Positions 48,001-61,103 are shown, numbered from the stretch's first letter. The stretch: 64,000 bases of DNA from Cyanobacteria bacterium P01_F01_bin.150 (GCA_039189765.1 JBCCYL010000009.1:1-64000), one strand, 5' to 3'. Notes: generated by a model from the letters alone, not told the origin. Numbers and translations: made by a program.

Positions 48001-48223
48001 AGCGTTTAAAGACCTGATAGCCATCGTTTTTCAGCGTTTTCCATTTGTAACGACCGTAGCCGGAATCTTTCAGGGAGTCGGGCATTTTCTCATAGGGTGG
48101 ATTCGAGTTACAAAGACAGGAATACAGCACTGCACGCTGGCTTGCAGGCAGGGCTTTACCATCCTTCTGCTGCAAATGACGCTCCACCTTATCCAAAAGT
48201 GCCTCAGCCTTTTCTCGTTCCAT
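45092..48223 (-). CDS. STAND (NB-ARC-like) NTPase with N-terminal HTH-like domain and C-terminal WD40 repeats
   Basis: Walker A GAARIGKT, Walker B LLVIDH, GGNP (GxP) motif, SLEQRCLV, pentapeptide-like linker, AHRNAISHLAFSPDG...IWD. Confidence 0.85.
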   Translation of the reverse strand: MEREKAEALLDKVERHLQQKDGKALPASQRAVLYSCLCNSNPPYEKMPDSLKDSGYGRYKWKTLKNDGYQVFKRLSNALGEDIRKNNCPRKLVDWYNHHQAETHVSEPDIRSTRKPEEEPEQAKLSDPNNQVPHDLLPFQTWKADLDDVSQAIQQRHRVVFIGGAARIGKTYFTHALMQRIRADFNIIVRYEAANVMTLGHLYQRIRHQLSKDGNDQFLNFAVPATTDDTSVIPALVAMLQSCRILLVIDHTDKFYASQQLAGCFRSEFSGYEKWLKSLLNSPSGYGCLIWVGRQPPGCFNAQYGMLKVHQVTGLQVPDAALLLRSRQLDPISSSSISPSPPNSPSDPLSNSADTAASGAEWDNANWELFVEFCGGNPAWLLVEATALERSHIANIRHFIADPSLHRSLVTILSQVLVNLAPEEYQLLCWLLLKPFSYQDIRQLESPNMSALEWESALVSLEQRCLVRQDSDQRYRINPPILAHILAQHLVQAIITDLLKAQTPQIVDSPIASLQALHTFPLLHGAASAERQNWLHKKLWIAIAHQFRQGLFQQQQIERLQSWLKIVQADPTLRSGYATSNLLNLAITLKLPLAEFDLRGLAIRHVDLRQANLHQVDFTGCWFQNVLLPLNLTGRLTAAMTPKGNAIAIGDEAGALFYWQHNEGTFRLKAIAHLPPTAASEQESSGQKTLQPPAEPSIAIEKLVFQDQNTLIVVGQQRVYSWWVDDATPPTLLTSLSAPFSCIVQSSIGRIAIGLTNGAIVLWDDMCSGIGARADGDRPQPLIAHRNAISHLAFSPDGCALMSICESNQGLIWDLRPWPRSAPSYQEWPVGINLCWDMRWTWNGQLRAEADPMSTYIKVRREAVVEQIEHTDPLFINRDTGVVSWKRPSGQLTGLSFDPNGSYLSGSSLSQNGDGSLFCWNWQTGAYRVIQRSNCYGTVLTTCSAGRLMLVAQGMQIQIFNLEQRELIWQVASLGNKQQNGAPGSALSETNILVKGTLDKAPVPLSINLQQVQGLSEIEKKQLQTASFPSSQARGQLRNLHMP

Positions 48224-48274
48224 GATCCTGAACCAGATTCACACCCCATTAGTCAGGTAGTGTATCGCAGAAAA

Positions 48275-48450
48275 ACTGACTTTTCATGACTTTTACTGAC
48301 TTTCTTGATGGTTGTTAATGACTTTTGAGGCTGAAATCAGGGTGAAAACTGACAAATGCTGACTAGAAAAGGCCAAAACTGCCTTTTATGACTGTGAAAA
48401 CCCCTTATTTTATAGTCATAAAAAGACTATAAAAAGTGCCTGACTATTTT
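48275..48450. promoter_or_regulatory. Phased TGAC(T) direct-repeat array, putative operator
   Basis: TGAC at 48277, 48287, 48297, 48319, 48350, 48360, 48389 and 48441, several 10 bp apart. Confidence 0.5.
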
Positions 48451-48489
48451 TCTTGAATCCTTTTTGCAGAACGGATAGAACATATTCAG

Positions 48490-48560
48490 GCCCCATAAAT
48501 AGCCCCCATAAGTAGCCCCTAGGTAAGTAGCCCCTGGTCAACGCCCCCATGAGTAGCCCC
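48490..48560. repeat. (AGTA)GCCCC direct-repeat array
   Basis: GCCCC at 48490, 48502, 48515, 48530, 48543 and 48556. Confidence 0.7.
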
Positions 48561-48647
48561 AAAATGCTTGGAATTGGCTTTTTCCTGTAGCCTATTGCCC
48601 CCTCCAAGCATTTCAAAAAAACAATTGATGATTAAACGGAGTTCCTG

Positions 48648-48914
48648 ATGACTGTATTTAATGTCCTAAAACGAAGATGCGATCGCGCTTCTCGTTCTCC
48701 TCAAAAGTCTAATCCAAGTCGGAGTTTATTATTCCCAGAAGGCGATCGCGCTGTCGTTCTACAATCCATTGAACCGGACCATCTTGGCCGCATTTCCTAT
48801 CAAGGTACCCACTGGTTTGCCTGCGGTATAAATGATGTTTATATCCCGGAAAATACGCTAGTAAAAGTGCTCAGTCGTCGAGGTACTACTTGGTTAGTGC
48901 AACCCATTGACTGA
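48648..48914 (+). CDS. Stand-alone NfeD-like C-terminal OB-fold protein
   Basis: GRISYQGTHWFA...IPENTLVKVLSRRGTTWLV. Confidence 0.8.
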   Translation: MTVFNVLKRRCDRASRSPQKSNPSRSLLFPEGDRAVVLQSIEPDHLGRISYQGTHWFACGINDVYIPENTLVKVLSRRGTTWLVQPID

Positions 48915-49295
48915 TTAAATTATCAATATTCGGCAGCTAAATTCTGTATGAAGTTTAGGCTGAATTTTTATCTAGCCTCAACCTCAACCTCAACATCAGA
49001 AGTCGTGTGTTCATGATGTTTCCTATACTACCTATTTCTTTGCTTGGATGCTGATAATCCATACTCAACCGCCAAGTTAAAGTGGGTCACGCCACTATGG
49101 AGAAATATGTATTTCAAGGACTCCAATGCAAAGCAGAACAATCTTGAGAATGATGATATGACGATGCGCACTATTTACCATCTTACTTTAGCCGCTTAGT
49201 ACAGAACTTTTCAGAAATTAAATTAGCCTCATCATTTCTGTAATCACATTAAATTCAAATTCTCAAAGACATTCATCGACCTTCACATAAAGAGC

Positions 49296-50387
49296 ATGAA
49301 AAAATCAATCAAAAAAATCACAAAATTATCTGAAAGTAATTTTTTGAATTTAGATAATAGCCCTAATTTATTCAAAGAAAATATATATTTATATTTAACA
49401 ATTGTTTCAGCATCTTGCTTGAGCATATTTCTGCCATCAATATTATTATTTCTATTTAAACATAATTTTGACTGTGATAGATATGCTAAAATCACTCTAG
49501 ATGCAAACTATAAATTTGCATCTATACTTGGCAATATATGCATTATAATCATATTTTTCAGAAATAAAAAAATAGCAAAAGAAACTATTAGAAATCTCAG
49601 AAAAATATTATTTGGATTACTTTCTTTAATCACATTGATTTCATTTTCAAAACTTAGCTTTTCATCTTACATGGAAGGAAATTTTATTGATAAATCAAGC
49701 TCATTTCATATATCAATATTTTTTGTTTTTTCGGAATTGTCATTGCTAATTGTTATTTGGAAACTAGAATTTCTATTTGCCTTAAAATCAAAGAAGAAAG
49801 ATAATTTAGTGTCAAACCAACATAATTTTTTGCCTGTTCAGGAAAATTTATTTCGCTTGCCATTCAAAGTGGGTTCATTCTTTTGTTACAAATACATACT
49901 CATGATTCTTAATATTTTTCTGAATATGATGAAAAATATAGAGAAAAATAAATTTCAAAAGCGCACAGAAGAGGTAATAGAGATGTTTCAATATATTGTG
50001 ATAAACTTTATTATCAGTATGATCCCCTTTTTGATAGATTTGTTCCTTAGTTTTTCACTCTCAAATATAAAGCCACTTGGGAGAATTGTTGGCCTTAATG
50101 ATTTATATCTGATCCCTGCGGCTTTTGGTGCAGTTGAAGTCGCCTCGCAAATTTCGTCAAATAATGAGCTTAAAACCGAGGCCACCCGTTTTATGAAGAG
50201 ATTTCTTATTTTTGCAGTATGGATGGTTTCTTTGATTTCATTTTCACTATTTGCCTTTGGTTGTAATGAAAAAGCTTATGAGGATATGAATGAGCCTTTT
50301 GTCTATGCGATTGTAGGTAGTCTATATTGTATTATTGCTGTTTTAATTGTTGCGTTAAAATCTTTGGCTATAAGAGAGATTGAATAG
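49296..50387 (+). CDS. AT-rich hypothetical polytopic membrane protein
   Basis: 363-aa ORF with many hydrophobic segments; visibly far more AT-rich than its neighbours; no HIP1 sites. Confidence 0.6.
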   Translation: MKKSIKKITKLSESNFLNLDNSPNLFKENIYLYLTIVSASCLSIFLPSILLFLFKHNFDCDRYAKITLDANYKFASILGNICIIIIFFRNKKIAKETIRNLRKILFGLLSLITLISFSKLSFSSYMEGNFIDKSSSFHISIFFVFSELSLLIVIWKLEFLFALKSKKKDNLVSNQHNFLPVQENLFRLPFKVGSFFCYKYILMILNIFLNMMKNIEKNKFQKRTEEVIEMFQYIVINFIISMIPFLIDLFLSFSLSNIKPLGRIVGLNDLYLIPAAFGAVEVASQISSNNELKTEATRFMKRFLIFAVWMVSLISFSLFAFGCNEKAYEDMNEPFVYAIVGSLYCIIAVLIVALKSLAIREIE

Positions 50388-50465
50388 CTTGATACGGTCC
50401 GTATATTTCCTATTTATGTAGTCTGTTAAGCATAAATTGTTGAAATTTGAAAAGTTTATTGCCCT

Positions 50466-50581
50466 GGCAACTAGAAGTTGCAGCTACACAAACGAAGTCC
50501 ACCTCCGTGGACTAGGTGTATCAAGGATTCTGACAACCCGCGTAGGCGGGTTTTGTTCGTATAGCCGCAATTTCAATTGCC
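50466..50581. mobile_element. MITE/REPIN-like element with long imperfect terminal inverted repeats
   Basis: Left arm GGCAACTAGAAGTTGCAGCTACACAAACGAAGTCCACCTCCGTGG pairs with right arm CCCGCGTAGGCGGGTTTTGTTCGTATAGCCGCAATTTCAATTGCC. Confidence 0.7.
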
Positions 50582-51135
50582 AGGAGGGCTTGATCAGTAG
50601 CCACTGTATTTTTACGTACAGAAAAATGTTTTGAAAGGTAGTTTTTAATAAGTCGCCAAATGCACAATGTATCAATTTTACGTATGAAGTATTGCGTAGG
50701 GTATAAACACTCATAAAGCACCGTTTCTTATTTTTATCAAAAACTTAATAATACGTTATGAAAACTTAAGCAATATAGTATGTTCAACGACAGATTGCGA
50801 TCGCACAAGGGATTGATTTATCGCTGTTCGCTAAGGACGATGACAACTCTAGCGTATCAGTACTTTATCATTAAAAAATATCTTACTGTTTATTTTGCTT
50901 GCATATAAATATTCAATCTAAATCGGCGAATTGACTGTTTACTTAAACACATAAAAAACTATAGGATTTGGGATATACTTTACTCTACTTTACTTTCTTC
51001 TTAAGTGTTTGTTGCAGTAAAGACGTGAAGGCCATCCTCTAGCTGCTACTGAATATTGCATGCATATTAGTGGATGCACTTAGGAATAAGAGTGGCCGGG
51101 GATTTTATGTTTTTATTCAGGATACGCATCTTACT

Positions 51136-54100
51136 ATGTCTCAATATTATCTCGGGGTTAATCTCGGCCATGAACGATCGGCCGCCCTTGTCAAAGATGG
51201 AAAGATTCTGGTTGCTATCGAGCAGGAAAGGTTAGATCGGCAGAAATATAGTATAGGGTTTATGCTGCAAGCGCCCGGCATTCCATCCCGCATGCAGCCT
51301 CCCAATCAAGCAATTCGTTACTGTTTAGACAGCTGCGGGATCACCCTGGATGATCTGGCTGCGATTACCGCAAATATGCCCGGTTATGATTTTGCTCCGG
51401 ACATCATGCGAAATCATTTTCCCGCAGATATTGCCGATAAAGTAAACGCTATTCCTAGCCATCATCTTGCCCATGCCTATTCAGCCTATTGGCCCTCAGG
51501 TTTTGATCAAGCGCTAGTCCTTGTCGCTGATGCTACAGGCAGTACGGATCAGGCTCATTGTACTGAATCTTACAGTCTGTATTTAGGAGATGGTCAGAGA
51601 TTAACCACTCTCCACAGTGAAACGGTCGCAGCCCATCTTGCCGGGCTATCAACGCTAGGCTTTGTTTATGAATATGTCACTCGCAAAGCGGGTTTCGTCA
51701 CCACAGTGGGAAATACCAAAATTAGCCATGCCGAAGCCGGTAAGCTGATGGGGTTGGCTCCGTTCGGTGGTGAGCAGATCAATTTTCATCGCTGGCTTAA
51801 AACCATTGAAAACAGCTACAGCCTCTCTATTTCTCCTTACGATATCTTTCTAGAAATTGCAGCACTGGAAAAAAAGTATGACACAGGAGAAGGGAAGCCC
51901 TATTTGCGTCCCTATCTGGTGGACTTAGCGTATAAGGTGCAGGATGAACTCGAAAAGGCATTGCAGCACATTGTCCAAGTTGCCATGGACAAGACCGGAT
52001 TGAAAAAGCTCTGCATCGCTGGCGGCGTCGGCCTAAATTCCGTAGCAAACTACAAGATTTTTCAAAATTTGGGATTGGAGGATATTTTTATCTTCCCCGC
52101 TGCTGGAGATAATGGCATTGCGGCAGGTGCTGCTTTATGGGCCTATGCCAATCAAGGTGGCGGTAAGCGGCCCAAACTAACCCAAGCAACCCTGGGCCAT
52201 GCCTACAGCCCATCCCTGGTCGATCAGGCCGTCCAAGAATTTGATGAAGCGATCGATGCGGAGGTCCTGTCCCCTGCTGAGATGCTGGAACGCAGCGCTC
52301 AGGCTCTGGCCAAGGGTCACATTGTGGCCCGGTTTGAAGGCGGTTCTGAGTATGGTCCCCGCGCCCTAGGCCATCGATCTATTATGGTGGACCCCACCTA
52401 TAAAAGGATGCGTGACATTGTTAATGCTAGGGTCAAGTTTCGAGAGGCTTTCCGGCCCTTCGCTCCAGTCATTCCCCGTGAGTGTGTCTCCGAGGTCTTT
52501 GAACTAGAGGCGGACTCTCCATTTATGCTGCTGGTTGCTCCCATTAAGCAAGAAGTGCAGGAGCAAATTCCCGCTGTCACCCACGTAGATGGGACGGGTC
52601 GTATTCAAACGGTGACAAACGAAGATAATTCCTACTTTTATCAGCTCTGTCATCGCTTAGTGCAATTGCGCCAGGGTCCACCCGTGTTACTCAACACCAG
52701 CTTTAATGTAGCAGGCCAACCCATTGTTGAAACTCCAGCCGAAGCCATTCAGACCTTTCTAAATACGGACATTGACTATCTTGCTGTAGATAACGTTTGG
52801 ATTTCCAAGCGACATGTCCAAGTCCAAAACTATGAGGAGCATCTTTCTAAGGTTAATCCCTCACCCATTCCCCATGGTTTATCACCCAATCAGCCTGCGG
52901 TGACGGACCTAATGGCTCAGCTGGATCAGGCACTATTTTTTGGCCCTCAGGAAAACTGTCCTTGGACGCCGGAAGAACTTAGGGCGCTGTCTGCGCTGGG
53001 CGCACGATATAAAGAAACAAGTGTATTGTTCCCTGAGACTCCATTTATGGGGTCTTTGAGGACAAAGGTAACGGAAGACATTGTATGGGTGCTTGATCCC
53101 CAGGATCGCTCTACTCTGGTTAATCTCTCTCTTCAGGGTAATCTTTCCTTTAAGACGCCCCAAGCGCTACCTGGTCGTCGCATCTCCTATGCCAGTCCTT
53201 CAAACTCTACATCTAATTCCGTAAGTGAGGTTGATCGATTAGAGGTTCGGGATACGGTCCAACTGTCAACCCAGCTTCAAGGCAAAGGCTATCGGCAGCT
53301 ATTACAAAAAGGAACAACTCAAGCGACAGCCTATAGTTTTGATGAGGTCAAACTGTTGATAGCGATGCTCTCTGGGCAGGAGGATTGGCGGGAGCGGATT
53401 CGGGTTGATCTGTGTCTTACTCATGCTGAATTGGAAAGCCATATTGCCTGGGCGGTTGAACAATTGACCCAGTATGGATTACAGCTACCTGAAGATGGGG
53501 CGATCGCCCACCCCTCTGATTCGTCCCTGCCCCCAAGCGTTGCCCAAACCTTAGAACCTTTTAGCAATGAACAGTTTTCCCAACGGCAGCTCTTAGCGGA
53601 GCTGCGATCGCGTCTCCACCATGCCAACTACACTTTGGACAACATTTGCGATCGCCTAAATGTAGAATCCCTACAGGCCATTGAACCCACGCGATTGCAC
53701 TATTACGATCGTTACCTGCTTGGGCAAGCCCTGTTAGATGATCTGATTCGTCTATTTCTGCTGCGGGTTGCTCTACCCAAGTCTCGACTAGAGGACTGTT
53801 TGGGCGTTCAAGTAGTAGAATCCCTGATTCGCCTGGGAGTTATTATTCGTCGTTCCCTCGCCCCATCTGTGGACTCAAATCCATCTGTAGAATCGGCCGA
53901 AGCTGAACTGTGGTCCTCCCGCATCGATCTATTTTGTGTCGATGGTTTATATATTGCCACCGATCATCGATATATGCTGCTGGCAGAAGATCAGATGGAT
54001 GAAAATCCAGTGATGTATGTTGGTGCTGATAGTCAAGGCTTAGTGTACTCGGCCCCACGCTATCCTGCAAAACAGCTTCTCGATTTATGCTGTGGTGGTG

Positions 54101-55164
54101 GCATTCAAGGATTAGTCGCCAGTCGTTATGCCCAGAAGGTTACGTCTGTTGACCTTAATCCCAGGGCTATTCGCTTTGCTCGCTTTAACGCCCAGCTTAA
54201 CGATATTCGGAATATCCAATTCCGCCTAGGCAGTCTGTATGAGCCTGTCGGCGAACAGCGATTTGATACCATCTTGGCCAATCCGCCCTTTGTGCCCAGC
54301 CCTACTCGGGAACTTGGCTTCCGAGATGGAGGTGCTACTGGTGAAGATATTCTTGCGGCCATTATTGCAGGTAGTGCGGCTCACCTGAATCCTAACGGCC
54401 ATGTATTTATCGTCACCGATTTGGTTGATATCGACACCTATGAGGCTAAGTTGGCTCAATGGTGGCAGGGGGGAGCCGCCCATCAGCTTGTGCTTTGTAC
54501 GGCTGATCGAGACGACATTTTATTCTCCGTGCCCCATAGCCACGCTCCCTTTGGCCAATCCCTTGAGGAATACAATACGGAGCTAGAACAATGGGTGGAT
54601 AATTTCCATCAGGCGGATTTAAAGGCGGTGAATTTTGGCTATATTCTGATTCAAAAATCCGCTGAAGCCTCCTATTTCTGTCGTACGGTCCATAATCCCA
54701 CCCAGGCGATTTATCCCATGGTCCAGTCCTACTTCCAACAGCAGGAACTGGTGCGATCGCCCCTTAGAGCAACCGCATTTCTGACGCTGATGGATGGACT
54801 ACGAATTCGGGTGGAAGAAGGGGTGTATGGAGGCGAGCGCAAAATCGAACTCCTCATCCCCAATAATTCTTACTTCACCACCTATCAGATTAATGAGGGA
54901 CTCTATCAATTGCTGAAAACGATTCAGCGACTCCAGCCCCAGTGGCAGGATTTTGCGACCCCTGCCAACCGTCCCTATTTAGAAAATCTAATTGGTAAAG
55001 GGTTGTTGATCTTGAGTATGGAACAACCGAGGTTAGAACATGATTCCGGCAATGGCTTTGCTGAACGATCTTCTTTAGAGGCATCTCAGAAAGCCCAGGA
55101 GCAAGACATTGTAGAATTACGGACAAAGACAACGCCGACCTGCTTATCTGCATATCTCAAATAA
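51136..55164 (+). CDS. NodU/CmcH-family carbamoyltransferase fused to an NPPF-motif SAM-dependent methyltransferase
   Basis: N-half HERSAAL, EQERLDR, HHLAHA, GKLMGLA, AGGVGLN, EYGPRALGHRS, KFREAFRPFAP, LNTSFN; C-half LLDLCCGGG, DLNPRA, FDTILANPPF. Confidence 0.9.
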   Translation: MSQYYLGVNLGHERSAALVKDGKILVAIEQERLDRQKYSIGFMLQAPGIPSRMQPPNQAIRYCLDSCGITLDDLAAITANMPGYDFAPDIMRNHFPADIADKVNAIPSHHLAHAYSAYWPSGFDQALVLVADATGSTDQAHCTESYSLYLGDGQRLTTLHSETVAAHLAGLSTLGFVYEYVTRKAGFVTTVGNTKISHAEAGKLMGLAPFGGEQINFHRWLKTIENSYSLSISPYDIFLEIAALEKKYDTGEGKPYLRPYLVDLAYKVQDELEKALQHIVQVAMDKTGLKKLCIAGGVGLNSVANYKIFQNLGLEDIFIFPAAGDNGIAAGAALWAYANQGGGKRPKLTQATLGHAYSPSLVDQAVQEFDEAIDAEVLSPAEMLERSAQALAKGHIVARFEGGSEYGPRALGHRSIMVDPTYKRMRDIVNARVKFREAFRPFAPVIPRECVSEVFELEADSPFMLLVAPIKQEVQEQIPAVTHVDGTGRIQTVTNEDNSYFYQLCHRLVQLRQGPPVLLNTSFNVAGQPIVETPAEAIQTFLNTDIDYLAVDNVWISKRHVQVQNYEEHLSKVNPSPIPHGLSPNQPAVTDLMAQLDQALFFGPQENCPWTPEELRALSALGARYKETSVLFPETPFMGSLRTKVTEDIVWVLDPQDRSTLVNLSLQGNLSFKTPQALPGRRISYASPSNSTSNSVSEVDRLEVRDTVQLSTQLQGKGYRQLLQKGTTQATAYSFDEVKLLIAMLSGQEDWRERIRVDLCLTHAELESHIAWAVEQLTQYGLQLPEDGAIAHPSDSSLPPSVAQTLEPFSNEQFSQRQLLAELRSRLHHANYTLDNICDRLNVESLQAIEPTRLHYYDRYLLGQALLDDLIRLFLLRVALPKSRLEDCLGVQVVESLIRLGVIIRRSLAPSVDSNPSVESAEAELWSSRIDLFCVDGLYIATDHRYMLLAEDQMDENPVMYVGADSQGLVYSAPRYPAKQLLDLCCGGGIQGLVASRYAQKVTSVDLNPRAIRFARFNAQLNDIRNIQFRLGSLYEPVGEQRFDTILANPPFVPSPTRELGFRDGGATGEDILAAIIAGSAAHLNPNGHVFIVTDLVDIDTYEAKLAQWWQGGAAHQLVLCTADRDDILFSVPHSHAPFGQSLEEYNTELEQWVDNFHQADLKAVNFGYILIQKSAEASYFCRTVHNPTQAIYPMVQSYFQQQELVRSPLRATAFLTLMDGLRIRVEEGVYGGERKIELLIPNNSYFTTYQINEGLYQLLKTIQRLQPQWQDFATPANRPYLENLIGKGLLILSMEQPRLEHDSGNGFAERSSLEASQKAQEQDIVELRTKTTPTCLSAYLK

Positions 55165-55202
55165 AGTCCATATCAGTAACGGAATGGTGAGACAGAGCTA
55201 AT

Positions 55203-55231
55203 GGTGGTGTGGGCGCAACGCGCCCACACCA
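55203..55231. repeat. GC hairpin of the REP-like family between convergent genes
   Basis: TGGTGTGGGCGC-AAC-GCGCCCACACCA. Confidence 0.8.
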
Positions 55232-55238
55232 TTTGTTT

Positions 55239-56066
55239 TTAAGCTGTTAAAGGGCCAGGCTGCAATGCCTTAAGATACTTCAGAAACTCTGTTTGTTCAC
55301 GAGCACTGAGCTGCTGGCGTGATCGCTTATGGTATTTTTGATCCAGCCAATCCCGTCCTTGGGCAATGGTCCACCCCACCCGCTGCATTTCAATCAAAAT
55401 CAAATCCGATACCGATAGCTCAATCACTCCAGCAATTAATTTCCAGCACGGATCGTCACCTTCCCAGCTGGGCGGACGGTGGGGCAAACCTAAACTCATC
55501 GTTATCAAGCATTGAGCACTGGGCCTATGACCTTGATCTAATTGGGCAACAAATGCTGGATCGGTAATGGGTACCTGATAAATCGTTTGCCCCAGAGCCG
55601 TTGTAAACGATCCTTTCCAGCGGGTTCCAGTGGAACGGACATCACCCGTGACCTGAAAAGACTGGGTGCGGATTAGCTCTAACGTTCGGCGGTTTTGGAG
55701 AGGCTGCGATCGCAGCCACGGCTCTGATACATACTTACGTTCGGTATGCAAAATCTGAGGCCGACAGCTACAAAAGGTCATTACCCTAGCAGGCTGTGCC
55801 CGATCAATCCGTTGCCATTGGCCATCGCGAATCCAGTAATTTTCACGGGCCATGCGATCGCGGTCCACTTTGTAGGCTAGCGGAATACTCAAGATATCCA
55901 GAAGCGCCGGTTCGTCACCGTCAATAAGGCGGATATCCGCTGGCACTTGACCATCGGGGAGGCGATCGCACACTGGCCGTACCCATTGGCCTGTATAAAT
56001 ATCGATACCAGCAATGCATCGCTCTCCATGTTTCCAGGAGTTTGCTAAACAAATCAACGTCGCCAT
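55239..56066 (-). CDS. Dual OB-fold (DuOB-like) domain protein with extra C-terminal helical domain
   Basis: ICLANSWKHGERCIAGI...WVRPV, ENY, PITDP, TMSLG, CWKLIAGVI. Confidence 0.75.
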   Translation of the reverse strand: MATLICLANSWKHGERCIAGIDIYTGQWVRPVCDRLPDGQVPADIRLIDGDEPALLDILSIPLAYKVDRDRMARENYWIRDGQWQRIDRAQPARVMTFCSCRPQILHTERKYVSEPWLRSQPLQNRRTLELIRTQSFQVTGDVRSTGTRWKGSFTTALGQTIYQVPITDPAFVAQLDQGHRPSAQCLITMSLGLPHRPPSWEGDDPCWKLIAGVIELSVSDLILIEMQRVGWTIAQGRDWLDQKYHKRSRQQLSAREQTEFLKYLKALQPGPLTA

Positions 56067-56084
56067 GCGTTCTAATAAAAAGGC

Positions 56085-56537
56085 TCAAAGATGATGAATC
56101 GTGACATCGCTCCACCGATCGGATAAATATTCGGCGACCAGTCGCCGATGGCAATGGTGGGGAGTTGCTTCACTACAGAGCAAACATCCTCCATCAAGTA
56201 ACTCCGGAGACAGGGTTTCCTCAATCCGTCGTTCGGCCATTAGTGCATTAAACTGACGGGTGTATTGGTCCCAGTCTCCCAGTTTTCCTCGTTTGCCGCC
56301 GGGCTTTTTGTAGGCGTCCAGAATATTTTTGGTGGGTGCGAGATTCAGTTGGTGCGTGTAGTTAATGTTCCCAATTTCCCCCAGGAAATATTCAAGATCG
56401 GGAGATTTGCTAAAGCCTGCAAGCTGGGATTTATTATTTAGCCGCACATCGATAACGGTTTTCACGCCTGCGTTGATTAAACGGCTAAAAAACGTCCGTG
56501 CTGTTTTCTTGGTAAATCCAATAGTGTAAATCTTCAC
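56085..56537 (-). CDS. DUF488 family protein (short)
   Basis: IYTIGFT, IDVR, SQLAGFSK, LLCSEATPHHCHRRLVAEYL. Confidence 0.9.
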   Translation of the reverse strand: MKIYTIGFTKKTARTFFSRLINAGVKTVIDVRLNNKSQLAGFSKSPDLEYFLGEIGNINYTHQLNLAPTKNILDAYKKPGGKRGKLGDWDQYTRQFNALMAERRIEETLSPELLDGGCLLCSEATPHHCHRRLVAEYLSDRWSDVTIHHL

Positions 56538-56672
56538 CGCTATGTTGAGGCTACTGCCTAACTGACCCTATATTACATATATACTATATCTTTAGTGGGT
56601 TTCGTGAAATAAGCGACAGTGGAGGCACAGACACCTCCATTGCCTGCCTAACGTTAGCGATACAATAACTCT

Positions 56673-57452
56673 ATGAACAGACCTAATTTTCCTGGCATGA
56701 ATCCCTATTTGGAGCGACCAGATATCTGGCCAGAGATCCATTATGGTCTGATAAGTGGTTTGATGCGATCGCTAAATCCTCTTTTAGTCCCCAAATACAG
56801 GGCCGCAGTGGATAAACGGACCTATATGGATTCTGTTTTAGTGGGGATTCCCGATACCACTGTTATCCAATCACCCAAGTCTATTGACTCACAGCAGCTA
56901 ACTGGTCGATCTGCGGCTAACCTTCAAGCGGCCACGACCATCTTGAGCAAACCAGAGATTGTTTCAGTTCCAATACAGGAAGAAGTGACCGAACGCTTTT
57001 TGGAAATTCGAGAAACAGCCACTGGCAAAGTGGTAACAGTGATTGAAGTGTTATCACCTAAAAATAAACAAGGAGGAGAAGGGCGCTTGAAATATCTGAA
57101 AAAGCGCCAAATGATTTTCAGCAGTCAGACTCACTTTGTTGAAATTGATCTCTTGAGAATGGGGCAACCGATGCCAATTCAAGGAGGCCGAAAATCGTCT
57201 TATCAAATTTTGGTCAGCCGAGTGGACCAGCGCCCCAGTGCAGAACGCTACCCCTTTGATATGCAACATCCGATTCCAGTTTTTACATTACCTCTGATGG
57301 TAATGGATACTGAGCCTGTAATTCAGTTAAATAAATTAATTGATCAAGCCTATCAGGAAGCCGCTCTTGATTTAGTCATTGACTACAGTCAACCGCCTGC
57401 GCCTCCCTTGGGGAAGAAGGACAGAGTATGGCTTGAATCTTTGCTCAATTGA
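56673..57452 (+). CDS. DUF4058 family protein (restriction-endonuclease-like fold)
   Basis: FPGMNPYLE, PD, IEVLSPKNK, HFVEIDLLR, IDYSQPPAPPL. Confidence 0.85.
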   Translation: MNRPNFPGMNPYLERPDIWPEIHYGLISGLMRSLNPLLVPKYRAAVDKRTYMDSVLVGIPDTTVIQSPKSIDSQQLTGRSAANLQAATTILSKPEIVSVPIQEEVTERFLEIRETATGKVVTVIEVLSPKNKQGGEGRLKYLKKRQMIFSSQTHFVEIDLLRMGQPMPIQGGRKSSYQILVSRVDQRPSAERYPFDMQHPIPVFTLPLMVMDTEPVIQLNKLIDQAYQEAALDLVIDYSQPPAPPLGKKDRVWLESLLN

Positions 57453-57510
57453 TTTTTCTAGTATCCCTGGTTGCCACAATCTGGATGAACCAGGGGTATC
57501 GTCATCAGAC

Positions 57511-57578
57511 GGGTGGTTTGGGGGGGGCGCGCCCCCCCCCCACCACCGTTAATTTTATTTCGCTTTAAAACGAAAGCC
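57511..57578 (-). repeat. REP-like two-hairpin element (homopolymer-degenerate copy)
   Basis: G-run/GCGC/C-run hairpin followed by ACCACCGTTAATTTTATTTCGCTTTAAAACGAAA. Confidence 0.8.
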
Positions 57579-57599
57579 TGAACCAGGGAAAAATTGTGA

Positions 57600-58340
57600 T
57601 TACTTTCGGTAGGCAATTTTTTTACCTTGTTGACAATAGGCTATTGCGATCGCCCTCTGTCTTTTTTCTAACTGCGGCTCTAGCCAATCTTTAAATACAT
57701 CCAACTGTCTGACTACAGTAATGCTGCTATCCCTTTTACGATTGTTCTCCTCAAAAGTGCTAGAAGGTGTCGGTCTTGCTTTAGTTCCAAACACACTTAG
57801 TAAATCCAGTTGGGCGATCGCCTCTTCAGGCTCCGGCTCTGGCTGATCGGGAGTATATAACTTTAGTAATCGATCCTCCAGCTCTGAGTGGGATTCCAGC
57901 CGACCATTGCGTAAAATATGTTGGATAGTATGGCCATCAGTATGAAGGGGACGGCTTACTAAAATAGCCCGATGACAGGTAATCGGATCGTGCTCGGCAC
58001 ACATCAGAGCAATGGAATGGGTTTCCGACCCTTTGACCAGACGGTTTAATCCCTCGATAAAAATAGGCGTTTGGGCCAGTCGTTCATAACTTACGGTTCC
58101 ATCAATGTAGCAATCCGGATCGGTGCTGCGGGGTCCCAGTTCTTTTCCTAAAAATACATAACTCAGTCCAGCTTTACGGATTGCGCCTTCTAGAGGAGCT
58201 TTGCAAAAGTGCTGGCAGTAGCGACTGTAGGGATGCGATCGCACATCAGCCAGCGCGGTTACACCATGATGCTTAAGGAGACCAATAAACTCGTCAATGG
58301 TGTGATTGGAGTGACCGATGGTAAAGATGGGACGTGGCAT
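57600..58340 (-). CDS. DUF488 family protein (long)
   Basis: IFTIGHSN, ADVRSHPYS, LGKELGPR, LMCAEHDPITCHRAILV, AYCQQGKKIAY. Confidence 0.9.
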   Translation of the reverse strand: MPRPIFTIGHSNHTIDEFIGLLKHHGVTALADVRSHPYSRYCQHFCKAPLEGAIRKAGLSYVFLGKELGPRSTDPDCYIDGTVSYERLAQTPIFIEGLNRLVKGSETHSIALMCAEHDPITCHRAILVSRPLHTDGHTIQHILRNGRLESHSELEDRLLKLYTPDQPEPEPEEAIAQLDLLSVFGTKARPTPSSTFEENNRKRDSSITVVRQLDVFKDWLEPQLEKRQRAIAIAYCQQGKKIAYRK

Positions 58341-59839: not shown

Positions 59840-60484
59840 ATGACCCAAAGTCTTGCGATCTCTAAAAATATTCTTACAATGGCGGCTGTCCAGCAGCGTT
59901 TTGGGGTGGTTCCAAGCGCGGATCCAGCCTTTTTTACAGAATGGAGTCAAGCGTTGCCAGCATTAACCCAGTCAGATCTTGAAATACTTGACCAAGTAAA
60001 AGCGAGATTTGACCGTCATCGTCATCAAGGCCCCTTGGCCGAAGGAACCATTAATCAGCTACTGATTTCTCCGCTGCTGACGCTGGCGGGTCTATATGAC
60101 GCTCCCTTCTTTGTTTCTACAGAACCTAGCCTTGAAATTGAGATAGAAGACAGGGATGAAGTTTTACGGGGACGCATTGATACCTTGATTGTTCAAGACC
60201 AATTTTGGGCGTTGGTGATTGAATCAAAGTCCACTATCGCATTTTCACTGGCGTTGCCTCAGGCGATGACGTATATGATGGCCAATCCCTATCCCGATCG
60301 CCCCGTTTATGGGTTAATCAGCAATGGGGACGAGTTTATGTTTATTAAAATGCTGACCCAAGGACTCCCCCAATATGACCTGTCCAACGTTTTTTCCCTA
60401 CTGATTCCCCGACGCAATCAGCTTCAAGACATTCTGCAAATCCTTCGGCAAATTCGGCAAATTATGGTCAGTTCTACACACTGA
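59840..60484 (+). CDS. Type I restriction enzyme R-subunit N-terminal-like (PD-(D/E)XK) protein
   Basis: RGRIDTL, VIESK, ALPQAMTYM, YGLISNGDEF. Confidence 0.75.
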   Translation: MTQSLAISKNILTMAAVQQRFGVVPSADPAFFTEWSQALPALTQSDLEILDQVKARFDRHRHQGPLAEGTINQLLISPLLTLAGLYDAPFFVSTEPSLEIEIEDRDEVLRGRIDTLIVQDQFWALVIESKSTIAFSLALPQAMTYMMANPYPDRPVYGLISNGDEFMFIKMLTQGLPQYDLSNVFSLLIPRRNQLQDILQILRQIRQIMVSSTH

Positions 60485-61103
60485 CCGTTCTCAAAACTTG
60501 ATTCGCTGTCAATGTCAGGCCAGGAAATGTGGGAGAAACAATCAGATTGTCGTCTCGAAACTGCTGGACCTGATACCGACCATTCACCAGGGTAAAAATG
60601 GAAAGCGTGGGTCTTTTGGGACTGCCAATATGGCGAGTACCGCCTATCCCCGCATAGTCTGCAATCCAGTATTCAGGGATACCTAAGGTCTCGTAGTCCT
60701 CTAACTTGCGAGAGTAGTCATTTTGCCAATTACTGCTAACGACTTCAGCGATCATCTTAATTGAGCGACTCTGCGTCAAAATTGACTGTTCCTGCCAGAG
60801 CGGTTCGTTATGTAGATTGGCTTCATCGATTACAGCCACATCAGGGCGAAAGGCCGTCATCGCAATATTCGGTGGACGAAAAAGCGGCCGTTGCAAGACA
60901 ACCCAAGCGAGATCTGCTAGATCTATCTGAACGCAAGTCTTCTTAGTGATAAACCCCGCTACCTGCTCATGAGGACCAGTTGGTTCCAAATCAAACACTT
61001 CTCCGTCAATCAGTTCATATCGGTTGTCACCACCATACCGTGTCAGGAACTCATCAACGCTGAGTGGCCTTTGTTGTAGAGGTGGATTGATTGCGATGGT
61101 CAT
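60474..61103 (-). CDS. Uma2 family endonuclease
   Basis: RYELIDG, PDVAV, EVVSSNWQNDY..KLEDYETLGIPEYWI, SPTFP. Confidence 0.92.
   Translation of the reverse strand: MTIAINPPLQQRPLSVDEFLTRYGGDNRYELIDGEVFDLEPTGPHEQVAGFITKKTCVQIDLADLAWVVLQRPLFRPPNIAMTAFRPDVAVIDEANLHNEPLWQEQSILTQSRSIKMIAEVVSSNWQNDYSRKLEDYETLGIPEYWIADYAGIGGTRHIGSPKRPTLSIFTLVNGRYQVQQFRDDNLIVSPTFPGLTLTANQVLRTVSV

What the first reader, a model, noticed from the sequence alone, without database searches (positions are those of the whole stretch)
51136..55164. Carbamoyltransferase-methyltransferase fusion: possible N-methylcarbamoyl-installing enzyme
Seen: one ~1340-aa ORF with a complete NodU/CmcH-type carbamoyltransferase (to ~52810), a ~250-aa unassigned middle region, and a class I methyltransferase with DLCCGGG (~54082) and NPPF (54280-54291), ending in TKTTPTCLSAYLK. 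No NRPS, PKS or sugar-pathway genes are adjacent. Knowledge: NodU/CmcH/TobZ enzymes make O-carbamates, and phage members carbamoylate hydroxymethylcytosine in DNA; (D/N)PP(Y/F) methyltransferases such as HemK/PrmC and amino-DNA methylases methylate planar amide or exocyclic nitrogens. Inference: the two domains act in sequence to give an O-(N-methylcarbamoyl) group, the group found in carbamate cholinesterase inhibitors, on a small molecule, protein or nucleic acid. The middle region may select the substrate. Its position next to the DUF488/dual-OB genes keeps a nucleic-acid target open.
Basis: partly seen in the sequence, partly recalled or inferred. Interest (0 to 1): 0.75.

Follow-up and report, generated by a model that had tools for sequence, protein, structure and literature searches.

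The report
Carbamoyltransferase–methyltransferase fusion with invariant cysteine tail
A real, widespread but unstudied bacterial enzyme joins a carbamoyl-adding domain to a nitrogen-methylating domain and ends in an invariant cysteine-bearing tail on a flexible tether, which may be the group's own acceptor or carrier.

Summary
Window 51136-55164 (+) encodes one 1342-aa protein. It has a complete TobZ/GdmN-type ATP-dependent carbamoyltransferase (1-560, all five catalytic residues kept), a conserved linker, and a roughly 500-aa N-methyltransferase half with DLCCGGG and NPPF.

The fusion is not an artefact. More than 100 protein clusters share it, and it occurs in 11 of 401 sampled cyanobacterial genomes, always fused. 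Both halves form single clades. I found no paper on it.

Two results are new.
- Every full-length member ends in T-x-T-T-P-T-C-[LIV]-S-x-Y-[LI] behind a variable tether of about 38 aa. Standalone relatives of the methyltransferase half lack it, and the motif occurs nowhere else in the 401 genomes.
- The gene co-occurs with an isochorismatase-like cysteine hydrolase (9 of 11 fusion genomes against 16 of 390 others). The hydrolase lies adjacent in 7 of 29 loci, usually with a PAS histidine kinase.

The DUF488/dual-OB neighbours are a convergent, separately terminated candidate defence module, seen at no other locus.

Best reading (0.35): carbamoylation then N-methylation, with the tail as in-cis acceptor or swinging carrier, analogous to HypF-HypE. 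An external acceptor is almost as likely. Structure prediction could not be run.

The parts
51136..55164 (+). Whole gene: 1342 aa plus stop. Carbamoyltransferase, linker, N-methyltransferase half, tether and tail.
51136..52155 (+). Kae1-like (acceptor-side) carbamoyltransferase domain, about residues 1-340. General base H12 (51169-51171). Fe ligands H109, H113, D132 and D325.
   Evidence: Alignment to GdmN chain 7vyj gives H12=H27, H109=H133, H113=H137, D132=D156 and D325=D333. Residue roles come from PMC9633730 (passages). H109, H113, D132 and D325 are invariant and H12 is at least 90% conserved in 32 homologs.
52297..52809 (+). YrdC-like domain, residues 388-558 (makes carbamoyl-AMP in characterised relatives).
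   Evidence: Pfam PF16861, 1-170/170 of the profile, E 1.1e-63. Domain role from PMC9633730.
52816..53115 (+). Conserved linker domain, residues 561-660, with no family assignment (includes the CPW..EEL and GARYKETS blocks).
   Evidence: Mean top-residue frequency 0.64-0.71 over 125 homologs. No Pfam or PDB sequence match.
53116..53340 (+). Ser-rich insert, residues 661-735, specific to this protein and its closest relatives.
   Evidence: Gapped in 58-93% of 125 homologs. Genome hits split around it.
53356..53850 (+). Helical N-terminal part of the methyltransferase half, residues 741-905, including the DUF7059-like stretch 830-905.
   Evidence: Pfam PF23186, 24.8 bits against a cut-off of 27. 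Collinear with the N-terminal part of standalone ~500-aa methyltransferases.
54055..54420 (+). Class I SAM-dependent N-methyltransferase core, residues 974-1095. Motif I DLCCGGG at 54082-54102, D1006, and NPPF at 54280-54291.
   Evidence: Pfam MTS. NCBIfam HemK-type models all below their cut-offs. PDB matches to GenN, AerE and PrmC. D983, G987, G989, D1006 and N1049-P1051 are invariant in fused and standalone relatives alike.
54526..55035 (+). C-terminal domain of the methyltransferase half, residues 1131-1300. Includes the fused-family-specific block TADRDDILFSVPHSHAPFGQS.
   Evidence: Collinear with standalone relatives up to about residue 1294.
55036..55113 (+). Variable tether, residues 1301-1326, rich in Ser, Glu, Pro and Gln.
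   Evidence: Top-residue frequency 0.18 with 36% gaps. Median tether length 38 aa in 117 homologs.
55114..55161 (+). Invariant tail E-L-R-T-K-T-T-P-T-C-L-S-A-Y-L-K. Cys1336 is at 55141-55143.
   Evidence: The relaxed motif is present in the 119 sequences tested of the 120 listed homologs (the 1192-aa partial P0048 was set aside). T, P, C, S and Y are each 179/179 in the proteins matched by a pattern that requires them. The back-translated motif hits only the 11 fusion genomes of 401, once each, with no control hits. It is unique in the window's own genome.
55203..55233 (+). Terminator-like hairpin (14-pair stem, 9 G-C) between the gene's stop and the convergent DuOB gene.

Best explanation
The gene encodes a self-contained bifunctional enzyme. 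Shown from sequence: (i) a class III carbamoyltransferase of the TobZ/NodU/GdmN type with an intact Fe site and general base; (ii) an intact N-directed methyltransferase with an NPPF motif, nearest to HemK2/PrmC, AerE and GenN; (iii) a ~38-aa flexible tether ending in an invariant T-T-P-T-C-x-S-x-Y peptide that is exclusive to this family. Inferred mechanism: the YrdC-like domain makes carbamoyl-AMP from carbamoyl phosphate and ATP. The Kae1-like domain transfers the carbamoyl group to a nucleophile of the enzyme's own tail, most likely Cys1336, otherwise Thr1333, Ser1338 or Tyr1340. [quoted passage not shown] The tail then swings to the methyltransferase site. The new -CO-NH2 group resembles a glutamine side chain, and it is N-methylated there. 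The result is a protein-bound N-methylcarbamoyl group, a thiocarbamate if it sits on Cys. This group is either the end product or an activated group passed on to a still unknown acceptor. A co-inherited isochorismatase-like cysteine hydrolase, from the branch that holds enzymes cleaving terminal carbamoyl amides, probably removes or processes this group. Its PAS histidine kinase partner suggests that the process is regulated.
For: Both active sites are intact. The fusion is old and held together: fused carbamoyltransferase domains form one clade against 84 standalone ones (SH-aLRT 100). Tail-bearing methyltransferase halves form one clade (support 100), and the one untailed row placed inside it is probably P0171, a fragment of a fused protein (identified by inference). 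The gene is fused in all 11 of 401 genomes that have it. The tail is present in the 119 sequences tested of the 120 listed homologs (the 1192-aa partial P0048 was set aside). Its T, P, C, S and Y positions show no variation in 179 tail-bearing proteins, although the matching pattern itself requires those residues. Synonymous codon positions vary freely between genomes, so selection acts on the peptide. The tail is missing from the standalone methyltransferase relatives: those columns are gaps in 90-99% of 111 rows, two of which are fragments of fused proteins. The motif occurs nowhere else in 401 genomes or in the window's own genome. The tail holds no Gln or Asn, so an amide-directed methyltransferase could act on it only after carbamoylation (inference). 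Two precedents exist: HypF transfers carbamoyl to the C-terminal Cys of HypE (PMC9633730), and a NodU-like enzyme carbamoylates a residue in a conserved C-terminal peptide motif (PMC13174530). No conserved substrate gene or biosynthetic cluster sits nearby in 29 loci. The acceptor-side N-terminal region (1-106) diverges from other carbamoyltransferases, since most standalone matches start near residue 107. Within the family it is strongly conserved (0.68-0.84), which fits one invariant acceptor. Hydrolase link: co-occurrence is 9 of 11 against 16 of 390. Adjacency is seen in 7 of 29 loci, or 6 of the 13 with at least 3 kb on both sides, including a member only 47% identical. The D-K-C triad is kept. 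Its best NCBIfam matches are BiuH and RutB.
Against: There is no structural or biochemical evidence that the tail reaches either active site; neither structure-prediction tool accepted a job. A large enzyme that modifies only itself would be stoichiometric, so a further transfer step has to be assumed, and no acceptor is known. TobZ-type enzymes mostly act on small-molecule hydroxyls. The tail could instead be an interaction, lid or regulatory motif. In HypE the Cys is the very last residue; here it lies 6-10 residues from the end. The Lys in the tail is not invariant (Glu in 11, Arg in 2, Leu and Asn in 1 each, of 179), so homocitrulline chemistry of the StdF type is unlikely. The hydrolase scores far below every curated cut-off (60-71 bits against 370 for BiuH). 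It is also present in 16 genomes without the fusion, and 2 fusion genomes lack it (one of them is 88% complete). Related genomes are not independent, so the Fisher p of 1.5e-10 overstates the link. The methyltransferase core also matches the DNA N6-methylase Mad2 (75 bits), so its substrate class is not fixed by sequence.
Confidence: 0.35

Rival explanations
1. Same two-step chemistry, but on an external acceptor such as a diffusible metabolite, lipid, glycan or another protein. The tail would serve as an active-site lid, a regulatory pseudo-substrate, or a docking motif for a partner such as the hydrolase or the kinase.
For: All solved close relatives (GdmN, NovN, TobZ) carbamoylate small-molecule hydroxyls. 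GenN, the nearest solved methyltransferase, acts on an aminoglycoside amine. A catalytic enzyme acting on a pool of substrate is the ordinary case. The hydrolase partner could recycle or degrade a small carbamate or ureide, as BiuH and TrtA do.
Against: No biosynthetic, transport or sugar genes recur beside the gene in 29 loci. This reading does not explain why a nucleophile-rich invariant peptite sits on a variable tether only in the carbamoyltransferase-linked clade.
Confidence: 0.3
2. The two domains have separate substrates and are fused only for co-expression or scaffolding. For example, the methyltransferase half does whatever the standalone ~500-aa DUF7059-type methyltransferases do, independently of carbamoylation.
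For: The methyltransferase half is collinear with a large standalone family: 3616 library hits at E<=1e-10, and many ~500-aa proteins that match residues ~807-1294. That family works without any carbamoyltransferase. A class of ~551-aa proteins made of the methyltransferase half plus tail also exists, one of them named methyltransferase [Thiocystis violacea].
Against: The fusion is kept in every one of the 11 genomes that have it. About 40 positions are invariant only in the fused clade, among them a block right after the methyltransferase core. The tail appears only in this clade. The split forms nest inside the fused clade, so they are secondary.
Confidence: 0.15
3. The target is a nucleic acid: a carbamoylated and then methylated base in tRNA, rRNA or DNA. 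This is what the first reader kept open.
For: The Kae1/YrdC pair is the fold of the t6A machinery, with weak TsaD and Sua5 Pfam hits (E 0.003 and 0.07). NPPF methyltransferases include DNA m6A and rRNA m2G enzymes. The core matches the MADS N6-methylase Mad2 (75 bits) and weakly RsmC and RlmG. The carbamoyltransferase matches a phage 'Nol-like carbamoyltransferase' PHROG (363 bits).
Against: The Mad2 match covers only the catalytic core (profile positions 280-416 of 492). The standalone relatives score the same. No other mad, restriction or specificity gene is adjacent. The best curated methyltransferase matches are HemK2/Mtq2-type protein methylases (93.6 bits). No nucleic-acid-binding domain was found. 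No relative of the C-half was found in viral contigs. The DUF488/DuOB neighbours are an unrelated convergent module.
Confidence: 0.08
4. Assembly or gene-calling artefact: two genes wrongly joined.
For: The window comes from a metagenome-assembled genome with 4.72% contamination. Some homologs are found in pieces.
Against: The same uninterrupted architecture appears in more than 100 independent clusters, including closed genomes (contigs of 5-8 Mb), and in 10 other sampled genomes with no internal stops.
Confidence: 0.01

Closest known systems
Class III ATP-dependent O-carbamoyltransferases: GdmN, NovN, TobZ (and NodU/CmcH)
   Same: The Kae1-like plus YrdC-like two-domain core is the same. The alignment covers residues 6-555 (E 3e-69 to GdmN). 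The general base and the four Fe ligands are kept.
   Different: Identity is only about 30-40%. The fused enzymes form their own clade. The N-terminal acceptor-pocket region is family-specific. About 780 further residues follow, carrying a methyltransferase and a tail. There is no natural-product cluster around the gene. The NodU equivalog model scores 137 against a cut-off of 1000.
HypF-HypE (carbamoylation of a C-terminal cysteine on a flexible tail)
   Same: It uses a carbamoyl-AMP-forming YrdC/Kae1-type enzyme. The acceptor is a Cys on a mobile C-terminal tail that shuttles between two active sites (HypF role as stated in PMC9633730). Here an invariant Cys sits on a tether at the C-terminus.
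   Different: The protein is not a HypF: TIGR00143 scores 20 bits against a cut-off of 466, and there is no acylphosphatase or zinc-finger part. The second step would be methylation, not dehydration to thiocyanate. The Cys is 6-10 residues from the end. The acceptor would lie in the same polypeptide. The analogy is functional only and is untested.
Amide/amine N-methyltransferases PrmC/HemK, HemK2/Mtq2, AerE (proteusin Asn N-methylase) and GenN
   Same: Same class I fold with an NPP[FY] motif. They are the nearest solved structures by sequence (GenN E 4e-13, AerE/7RC2 E 7e-10, PrmC 4e-5). The best curated model is an Mtq2-like family (93.6 bits).
   Different: The protein scores below every curated cut-off. 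It carries its own ~170-aa helical N-terminal part and ~170-aa C-terminal domain, shared with a large uncharacterised ~500-aa family. No Gln or Asn substrate is evident.
[quoted passage not shown]
   Same: A NodU-like carbamoyltransferase fused to a second catalytic domain, acting on a residue within a highly conserved C-terminal peptide motif.
   Different: StdF modifies Lys of a separate precursor peptide inside a biosynthetic cluster. Here the Lys of the motif is not invariant, the peptide is part of the enzyme, and there is no cluster.
Physostigmine biosynthesis (recalled from memory; not seen in any call)
   Same: As I recall it, an O-carbamoyl group is installed and then N-methylated to give the N-methylcarbamate.
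   Different: That pathway uses separate enzymes in an actinomycete natural-product cluster acting on an indole metabolite. I could not check sequence relatedness. My search found only a crocagin paper that mentions physostigmine in passing.

Membership tests
Class III (TobZ/NodU/GdmN-type) carbamoyltransferase | Kae1-like N-domain followed by a YrdC-like C-domain | tested here: met
   PF02543 (E 7.9e-31) and PF16861 (1-170/170, E 1.1e-63). Aligned to GdmN over residues 6-555.
Class III (TobZ/NodU/GdmN-type) carbamoyltransferase | Fe site of two His and two Asp, plus a general-base His | tested here: met
   H109, H113, D132 and D325 correspond to GdmN H133, H137, D156 and D333. H12 corresponds to H27. 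These residues are invariant or at least 90% conserved in 32 homologs.
Class III (TobZ/NodU/GdmN-type) carbamoyltransferase | Forms carbamoyl-AMP and transfers carbamoyl to a nucleophile | not testable with these tools
   Needs an enzyme assay.
NodU (NCBIfam equivalog NF041651) | Score at or above the curated cut-off | tested here: not met
   137.3 bits against a cut-off of 1000, and the match covers residues 272-537 only.
HemK/PrmC/HemK2 protein N5-glutamine methyltransferases | SAM motif I, acidic motif II and an NPP[YF] catalytic motif | tested here: met
   DLCCGGG at 983-989, D1006 and NPPF at 1049-1052. These are invariant across fused and standalone relatives.
HemK/PrmC/HemK2 protein N5-glutamine methyltransferases | Score at or above the curated family cut-offs | tested here: not met
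   PrmC 57.4 against 199.1; hemK_fam 46.4 against 115.5; HemK2/Mtq2 45.7 against 87; PRK14968.1-3 93.6 against 162.
Standalone ~500-aa DUF7059-MTS methyltransferases (uncharacterised) | Collinear over the helical N-part, the MTS core and the C-terminal domain | tested here: met
   For example, P0140 (538 aa) residues 25-510 match C-half 249-744, and P0142 residues 17-498 match 248-735. Median identity is 32% over 111 rows.
Standalone ~500-aa DUF7059-MTS methyltransferases (uncharacterised) | DUF7059 (PF23186) above the gathering score | tested here: inconclusive
   24.8 bits against a cut-off of 27 in my scan. The precomputed Pfam column lists PF23186 for this protein and for some homologs.
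HypF/HypE carbamoyl-cysteine system | HypF architecture (acylphosphatase, Zn fingers, YrdC, Kae1) | tested here: not met
   TIGR00143 scores 20.1 bits against a cut-off of 466.1, and the match covers residues 264-335 only.
HypF/HypE carbamoyl-cysteine system | Acceptor Cys on a flexible C-terminal tail | tested here: inconclusive
   An invariant Cys lies behind a variable tether, but it is 6-10 residues from the end, not terminal. Modification was not tested.
MADS Mad2 DNA N6-methyltransferase (PADLOC PDLC04134) | Full-length match and the other mad genes alongside | tested here: not met
   75 bits covering profile positions 280-415 of 492 only. The standalone relatives score the same. No mad-like neighbours were found.

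The most novel reading that the evidence does not exclude
The enzyme uses its own invariant C-terminal cysteine as a swinging arm. The arm is S-carbamoylated at one active site, giving a glutamine look-alike. It is then N-methylated at the other site, giving a protein-bound S-(N-methylcarbamoyl)cysteine. That thiocarbamate is a chemically activated N-methylcarbamoyl donor. It would then either N-methylcarbamoylate a cellular target or be reset by the co-inherited isochorismatase-like cysteine hydrolase under control of a PAS histidine kinase. This would be a previously unknown carrier-based group-transfer or protein-modification system.
Probability: 0.15. Interest if true: 0.85.

Novelty: new variant of a known kind. 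Interest (0 to 1): 0.64.

Why it matters
Both catalytic domains belong to well-known kinds, but this combination has not been studied. It is a family of several hundred proteins in cyanobacteria and other, mostly marine, bacteria. If the two steps are coupled, this would be a single-polypeptide route to N-methylcarbamoyl groups outside a natural-product cluster. If the tail is the acceptor, it would extend the HypF-HypE principle, an enzyme-bound carbamoyl-cysteine on a mobile tail, to a new chemistry. It would also give the large uncharacterised family of ~500-aa DUF7059-type methyltransferases a first functional handle. The invariant 12-residue tail makes the hypothesis directly testable by mass spectrometry of one peptide.

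Tried and rejected
- **Complex prediction of carbamoyltransferase domain plus tail.** The job was never accepted. The queue was full, or I handed it in before the waiting time was over. The machine gave no usable answer. No model, fold search or docking result exists.
- **The listing of cluster members.** I have no accession numbers for homologs.
- **The search for related loci in genome contigs with the single protein.** It gave only one locus, the same genome as G354.
- **Context of a standalone methyltransferase in G121.** This is a high-GC contig in a genome with 7% contamination, with overlapping ORFs. It was uninformative and I dropped it.
- **Split forms.** The 'shorter' searches mostly returned pieces of broken or truncated genes. 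Examples are pairs that report the same longest-contig length: P0365+P0287, P0364+P0300 and P0355+P0302. Only the ~551-aa class looks like a true split. I could not check whether a carbamoyltransferase gene lies beside it.
- **Sequencing runs.** No RNA holder is listed; the only holder is the probable source metagenome.
- **Rfam scan of 48200-56700.** Nothing credible, and no riboswitch upstream.
- **Viral contigs.** No relative of the C-half.
- **Earlier findings of this scan.** Nothing.
- **Lys of the tail as carbamoylation site (StdF-like).** Rejected because Lys is replaced by Glu, Arg, Leu or Asn in 15 of 179.
- **WD40/STAND protein near the gene in both the window and L070.** Judged a repeat-driven chance match.
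- **Literature.**: 16 papers hold the terms, and none of the 15 listed concerns this fusion by title or abstract start. DUF7059 occurs in 0 papers; none of the 10 papers listed contained the term 'N-methylcarbamoyl'; one paper, on crocagin.

Full report
**Observation.** The frame is open from GTG 51070 to the stop at 55164. From ATG 51136 it encodes 1342 residues. Aligned homologs begin at this Met.

Pfam finds:
- Carbam_trans_N at residues 107-334.
- Carbam_trans_C at residues 388-558, covering the whole profile (E 1.1e-63).
- The MTS methyltransferase domain at residues 974-1095.
- A sub-threshold DUF7059 at residues 830-905 (24.8 bits against a cut-off of 27).

None of the 10 neighbouring ORFs scanned is an NRPS, PKS or sugar-pathway gene.

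**The fusion is real and widespread.**
- A word-indexed search returned 324 hits among 8000 scored candidates. All 120 listed carry both carbamoyltransferase and MTS Pfam domains. Of these, 119 are 1253-1389 aa and one is a 1192-aa partial. They share 51-83% identity over the full length.
- Source names are generic: 'carbamoyltransferase C-terminal domain-containing protein', 'methyltransferase' and 'putative nodulation protein'. The organisms named include Leptothoe, Leptolyngbya, Nostoc, Fischerella, Calothrix and Pseudanabaena, plus a few Gammaproteobacteria MAGs. Some hits lie on closed chromosomes.
- The ESM Atlas has a 311-member cluster for it.
- In an even sample of the class, 11 of 401 genomes have the C-half, always inside one frame of 1261-1373 aa. 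It was found in 0 of 16 other genomes of the window's family, which include 3 of its genus at 85-97% completeness.
- In a phylum sample, 59 of 301 genomes matched, but only 2 matched over the full length. The rest are ordinary ~600-aa carbamoyltransferases.
- The gene is single-copy in its own genome.
- A tree of carbamoyltransferase domains puts 26 fused ones in one clade against 84 standalone ones (SH-aLRT 100).
- A tree of methyltransferase halves, with tails trimmed off, puts 40 fused and 7 split tail-bearing rows in one clade of 48 (support 100). The odd row is probably P0171, a fragment of a fused protein; I identified it by inference.

The gene is therefore an old, patchily distributed accessory gene.

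**Carbamoyltransferase half.** The nearest solved structures are GdmN (E 3e-69, residues 6-555), NovN, an unnamed carbamoyltransferase (7xb6) and TobZ. The GdmN paper names H27 as general base and H133, H137, D156 and D333 as Fe ligands (PMC9633730, passages). In the printed alignment to chain 7vyj these correspond to H12, H109, H113, D132 and D325. In 32 homologs, H109, H113, D132 and D325 are invariant and H12 is at least 90% conserved. The domain looks catalytically competent.

It is not a NodU ortholog (137 bits against a cut-off of 1000) and not a HypF (20 against 466). Most standalone cyanobacterial carbamoyltransferases align only from about residue 107. Residues 1-106 contribute to the acceptor pocket in GdmN. 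Here they are family-specific yet well conserved within the family (0.68-0.84).

**Methyltransferase half.** Motif I, D1006 and N-P-P are invariant in fused and standalone relatives alike. All curated models score below their cut-offs. The best is an Mtq2-like archaeal family (93.6 against 162), followed by PrmC (57.4 against 199.1).

The nearest solved structures are all N-methylases:
- GenN, an aminoglycoside amine N-methylase.
- 7RC2, which PMC9060474 identifies as AerE, an Asn side-chain amide N-methylase related to GenN and PrmC.
- PrmC/HemK.

PADLOC's Mad2 model is a DNA N6-methylase of the MADS system (preprint 10.1101/2023.03.30.534895, passages). It also matches, but only over the catalytic core (profile positions 280-416 of 492, 75 bits). 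The standalone relatives score the same. Sequence therefore fixes the chemistry, methylation of an amide or amino nitrogen, but not the substrate class.

An exhaustive HMMER search with the C-half found 3616 proteins at E<=1e-10. Beyond the fused family, these are mostly ~500-aa proteins collinear with residues ~807-1294 at 30-41% identity. They form an uncharacterised family. I found no paper that mentions DUF7059.

**Anatomy by conservation (125 homologs).**

| Residues | Part | Conservation |
|---|---|---|
| 1-560 | Carbamoyltransferase | conserved |
| 561-660 | Linker domain with no known relatives | 0.64-0.71 |
| 661-735 | Ser-rich insert, private to this lineage | gapped in 58-93% of others |
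| 741-900 | Helical part | moderate |
| 901-925 | Second private insert | gapped in 62% of others (901-920 window) |
| 941-1200 | Methyltransferase core plus extension | conserved |
| 1201-1300 | C-terminal domain | 0.44-0.67 |
| 1301-1320 | Variable stretch (tether) | 0.18 |
| 1321-1342 | Conserved end (tail) | 0.74 |

**The tail.** This is the main new result.
- The relaxed motif is present in the 119 sequences tested of the 120 listed homologs (the 1192-aa partial P0048 was set aside). All end in [TS]-x-[TS]-T-P-[TP]-C-[LIVM]-S-x-Y-[LIM], 12-20 residues from the C-terminus.
The matching pattern requires these residues, so the figure shows that no variant form turned up among the hits. The Lys is replaced in 15 of them: Glu in 11, Arg in 2, Leu and Asn in 1 each.
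- The preceding tether has a median length of 38 residues and is rich in Ser, Glu, Pro and Gln.
- The ~500-aa standalone relatives lack the tail. Those columns are gaps in 90-99% of 111 rows, two of which are really fragments of fused proteins.
- A back-translated pattern of the motif hits exactly the 11 fusion genomes among 401. It hits once each, at the 3' end of the gene, with no hit of the reversed control. Synonymous positions differ between genomes, so the selection acts on the peptide.
- The motif is unique in the six-frame translation of the window's own genome.

A class of ~551-aa proteins consists of the methyltransferase half plus tether plus tail, with its own Met. It comprises P0278-P0281, P0125 and P0280; the last is named methyltransferase [Thiocystis violacea]. 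These nest inside the fused clade, so they look like secondary splits. I could not see whether a carbamoyltransferase gene lies beside them.

**Neighbourhood.** I compared 29 other loci: 10 from sampled genomes and 19 from metagenomes. The comparison used ORF clustering and Pfam.

The only recurrent neighbour is an isochorismatase-family gene of about 204 aa.
- It is adjacent in 7 of 29 loci: L052, L055, L058, L060, L062, L070 and L079. That is 6 of the 13 loci with at least 3 kb on both sides.
- A PAS histidine kinase lies directly beside it in 5 of these. A response-regulator kinase takes that place in L062.
- Gene order differs in L060. L079 belongs to a member only 47% identical to the query.
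- The hydrolases are 55-73% identical to each other and keep the Asp, Lys and Cys of the triad (triad as described for TrtA and BiuH in PMC7948467).
- Their best NCBIfam matches are biuret amidohydrolase BiuH and RutB, at 60-71 bits, far below the cut-off of 370.
- In the window's genome the hydrolase-kinase pair lies on another contig (C16, 57391-59447).

In the same 401 genomes the hydrolase ortholog (E<=1e-30) is present in 25. These include 9 of the 11 fusion genomes, against 16 of the other 390. The odds ratio is 105 and Fisher p is 1.5e-10. Related genomes are not independent, so this p overstates the link. The pattern does hold within families: f41 2/2 against 4/37, f27 2/2 against 3/37, f15 3/4 against 1/35. 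The two fusion genomes without the hydrolase are G346 (88% complete) and G499.

Other neighbours are heterogeneous: gamma-glutamyl transpeptidase, IPMS, GST, TrpRS, class V aminotransferase, and SelO in 2 loci.

**The window's own neighbours.** The DuOB gene (55239-56066) and the two DUF488 genes lie on the minus strand. They are convergent with the fusion gene and separated from it by a 14-pair hairpin followed by a T-run (55203-55233). They match the PADLOC candidate system PDC-M45 parts A, C and B at 99, 225 and 236 bits. They cluster with nothing at the other 29 loci. They give no support for a nucleic-acid target.

**Mechanism.** What is shown:
- Two intact active sites in one ancient polypeptide.
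- A unique invariant nucleophile-rich peptide on a flexible tether.
- A co-inherited cysteine hydrolase.

What is inferred: the tail is the in-cis acceptor or carrier. It would be carbamoylated at the Kae1-like site, as HypF does to the C-terminal Cys of HypE, or as the NodU-like StdF does within a conserved C-terminal peptide motif (PMC13174530). It would then be N-methylated at the NPPF site.

The tail has no Gln or Asn. An amide-directed methylase could therefore act on it only after carbamoylation. S-carbamoyl-cysteine and O-carbamoyl-serine or -threonine resemble the glutamine side chain; this point rests on my own knowledge, not on a call. On Cys the product would be a thiocarbamate, an activated N-methylcarbamoyl donor. 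The hydrolase could remove or relay it.

I give this reading 0.35. Nearly as likely (0.30) is an external acceptor, with the tail acting as lid, regulator or docking motif. Independent functions of the two halves (0.15) and a nucleic-acid target (0.08) are less likely. An artefact is excluded.

**Novelty.** My searches found no paper on this architecture: 16 papers, none relevant by listing; 0 papers. Earlier notes of this scan hold nothing on it. The two-step formation of an N-methylcarbamate by separate enzymes in physostigmine biosynthesis is recalled from memory and was not seen in any call. I rate the finding a new variant of known kinds, with a realistic chance of being a new kind of carrier-based system.

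**Limits.** There are no expression data. The neighbourhoods of the split forms were not seen. Cluster accession numbers could not be retrieved.

Noticed in passing
window 55239-58340 (- strand; DUF4058 at 56673-57452 on +): The DuOB gene and two DUF488 genes match the PADLOC candidate defence system PDC-M45 (M45A 99 bits, M45C 225 bits, M45B 236 bits). A DUF4058 gene is inserted between them on the other strand.
   Followed up: partly
window 60474-61103 (-): A Uma2-family putative endonuclease matches the PADLOC candidate PDC-S03 (273 bits). The adjacent ORF 59840-60484 has a weak PD-(D/E)xK match.
   Followed up: no
window 49000-50500: A low-GC island (0.28-0.30 against about 0.48 around it) holds a 363-aa multi-pass membrane ORF (49296-50387) with no Pfam or PADLOC match. 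It lies directly upstream of the fusion gene.
   Followed up: no
G000 contig 16, 57391-59447 (locus L141): An isochorismatase-like cysteine hydrolase and a PAS histidine kinase overlap by a few bases, which suggests an operon. This pair sits beside the fusion gene in other genomes but on a different contig here.
   Followed up: partly
proteins P0278-P0281, P0280, P0125: A class of ~551-aa proteins made of the methyltransferase half plus tether plus tail (TETTPTCLSSYL), each with its own start. One is named methyltransferase [Thiocystis violacea]. They are likely a two-gene version of the system.
   Followed up: partly
L067 10001-13772; also proteins that report the same longest-contig length (P0365+P0287, P0364+P0300, P0355+P0302): In several genomes or contigs the fusion gene is broken into two or three frames. 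The cause could be frameshifts, decay or sequencing errors.
   Followed up: no
L065 2635-5000: A member 47% identical to the query sits next to proteins with a T9SS C-terminal sorting domain and a Fibrobacter-type domain. This suggests the family also occurs outside cyanobacteria and Gammaproteobacteria.
   Followed up: no
window 53116-53340 and about 53836-53910: Two inserts (residues 661-735, Ser-rich, and about 901-925) are private to this protein and its closest relatives. They are absent from most of the family.
   Followed up: no
L066 4843-5787 and L075 6292-7434: A SelO (protein adenylyltransferase) gene lies downstream of the fusion gene in two marine metagenome loci.
   Followed up: no
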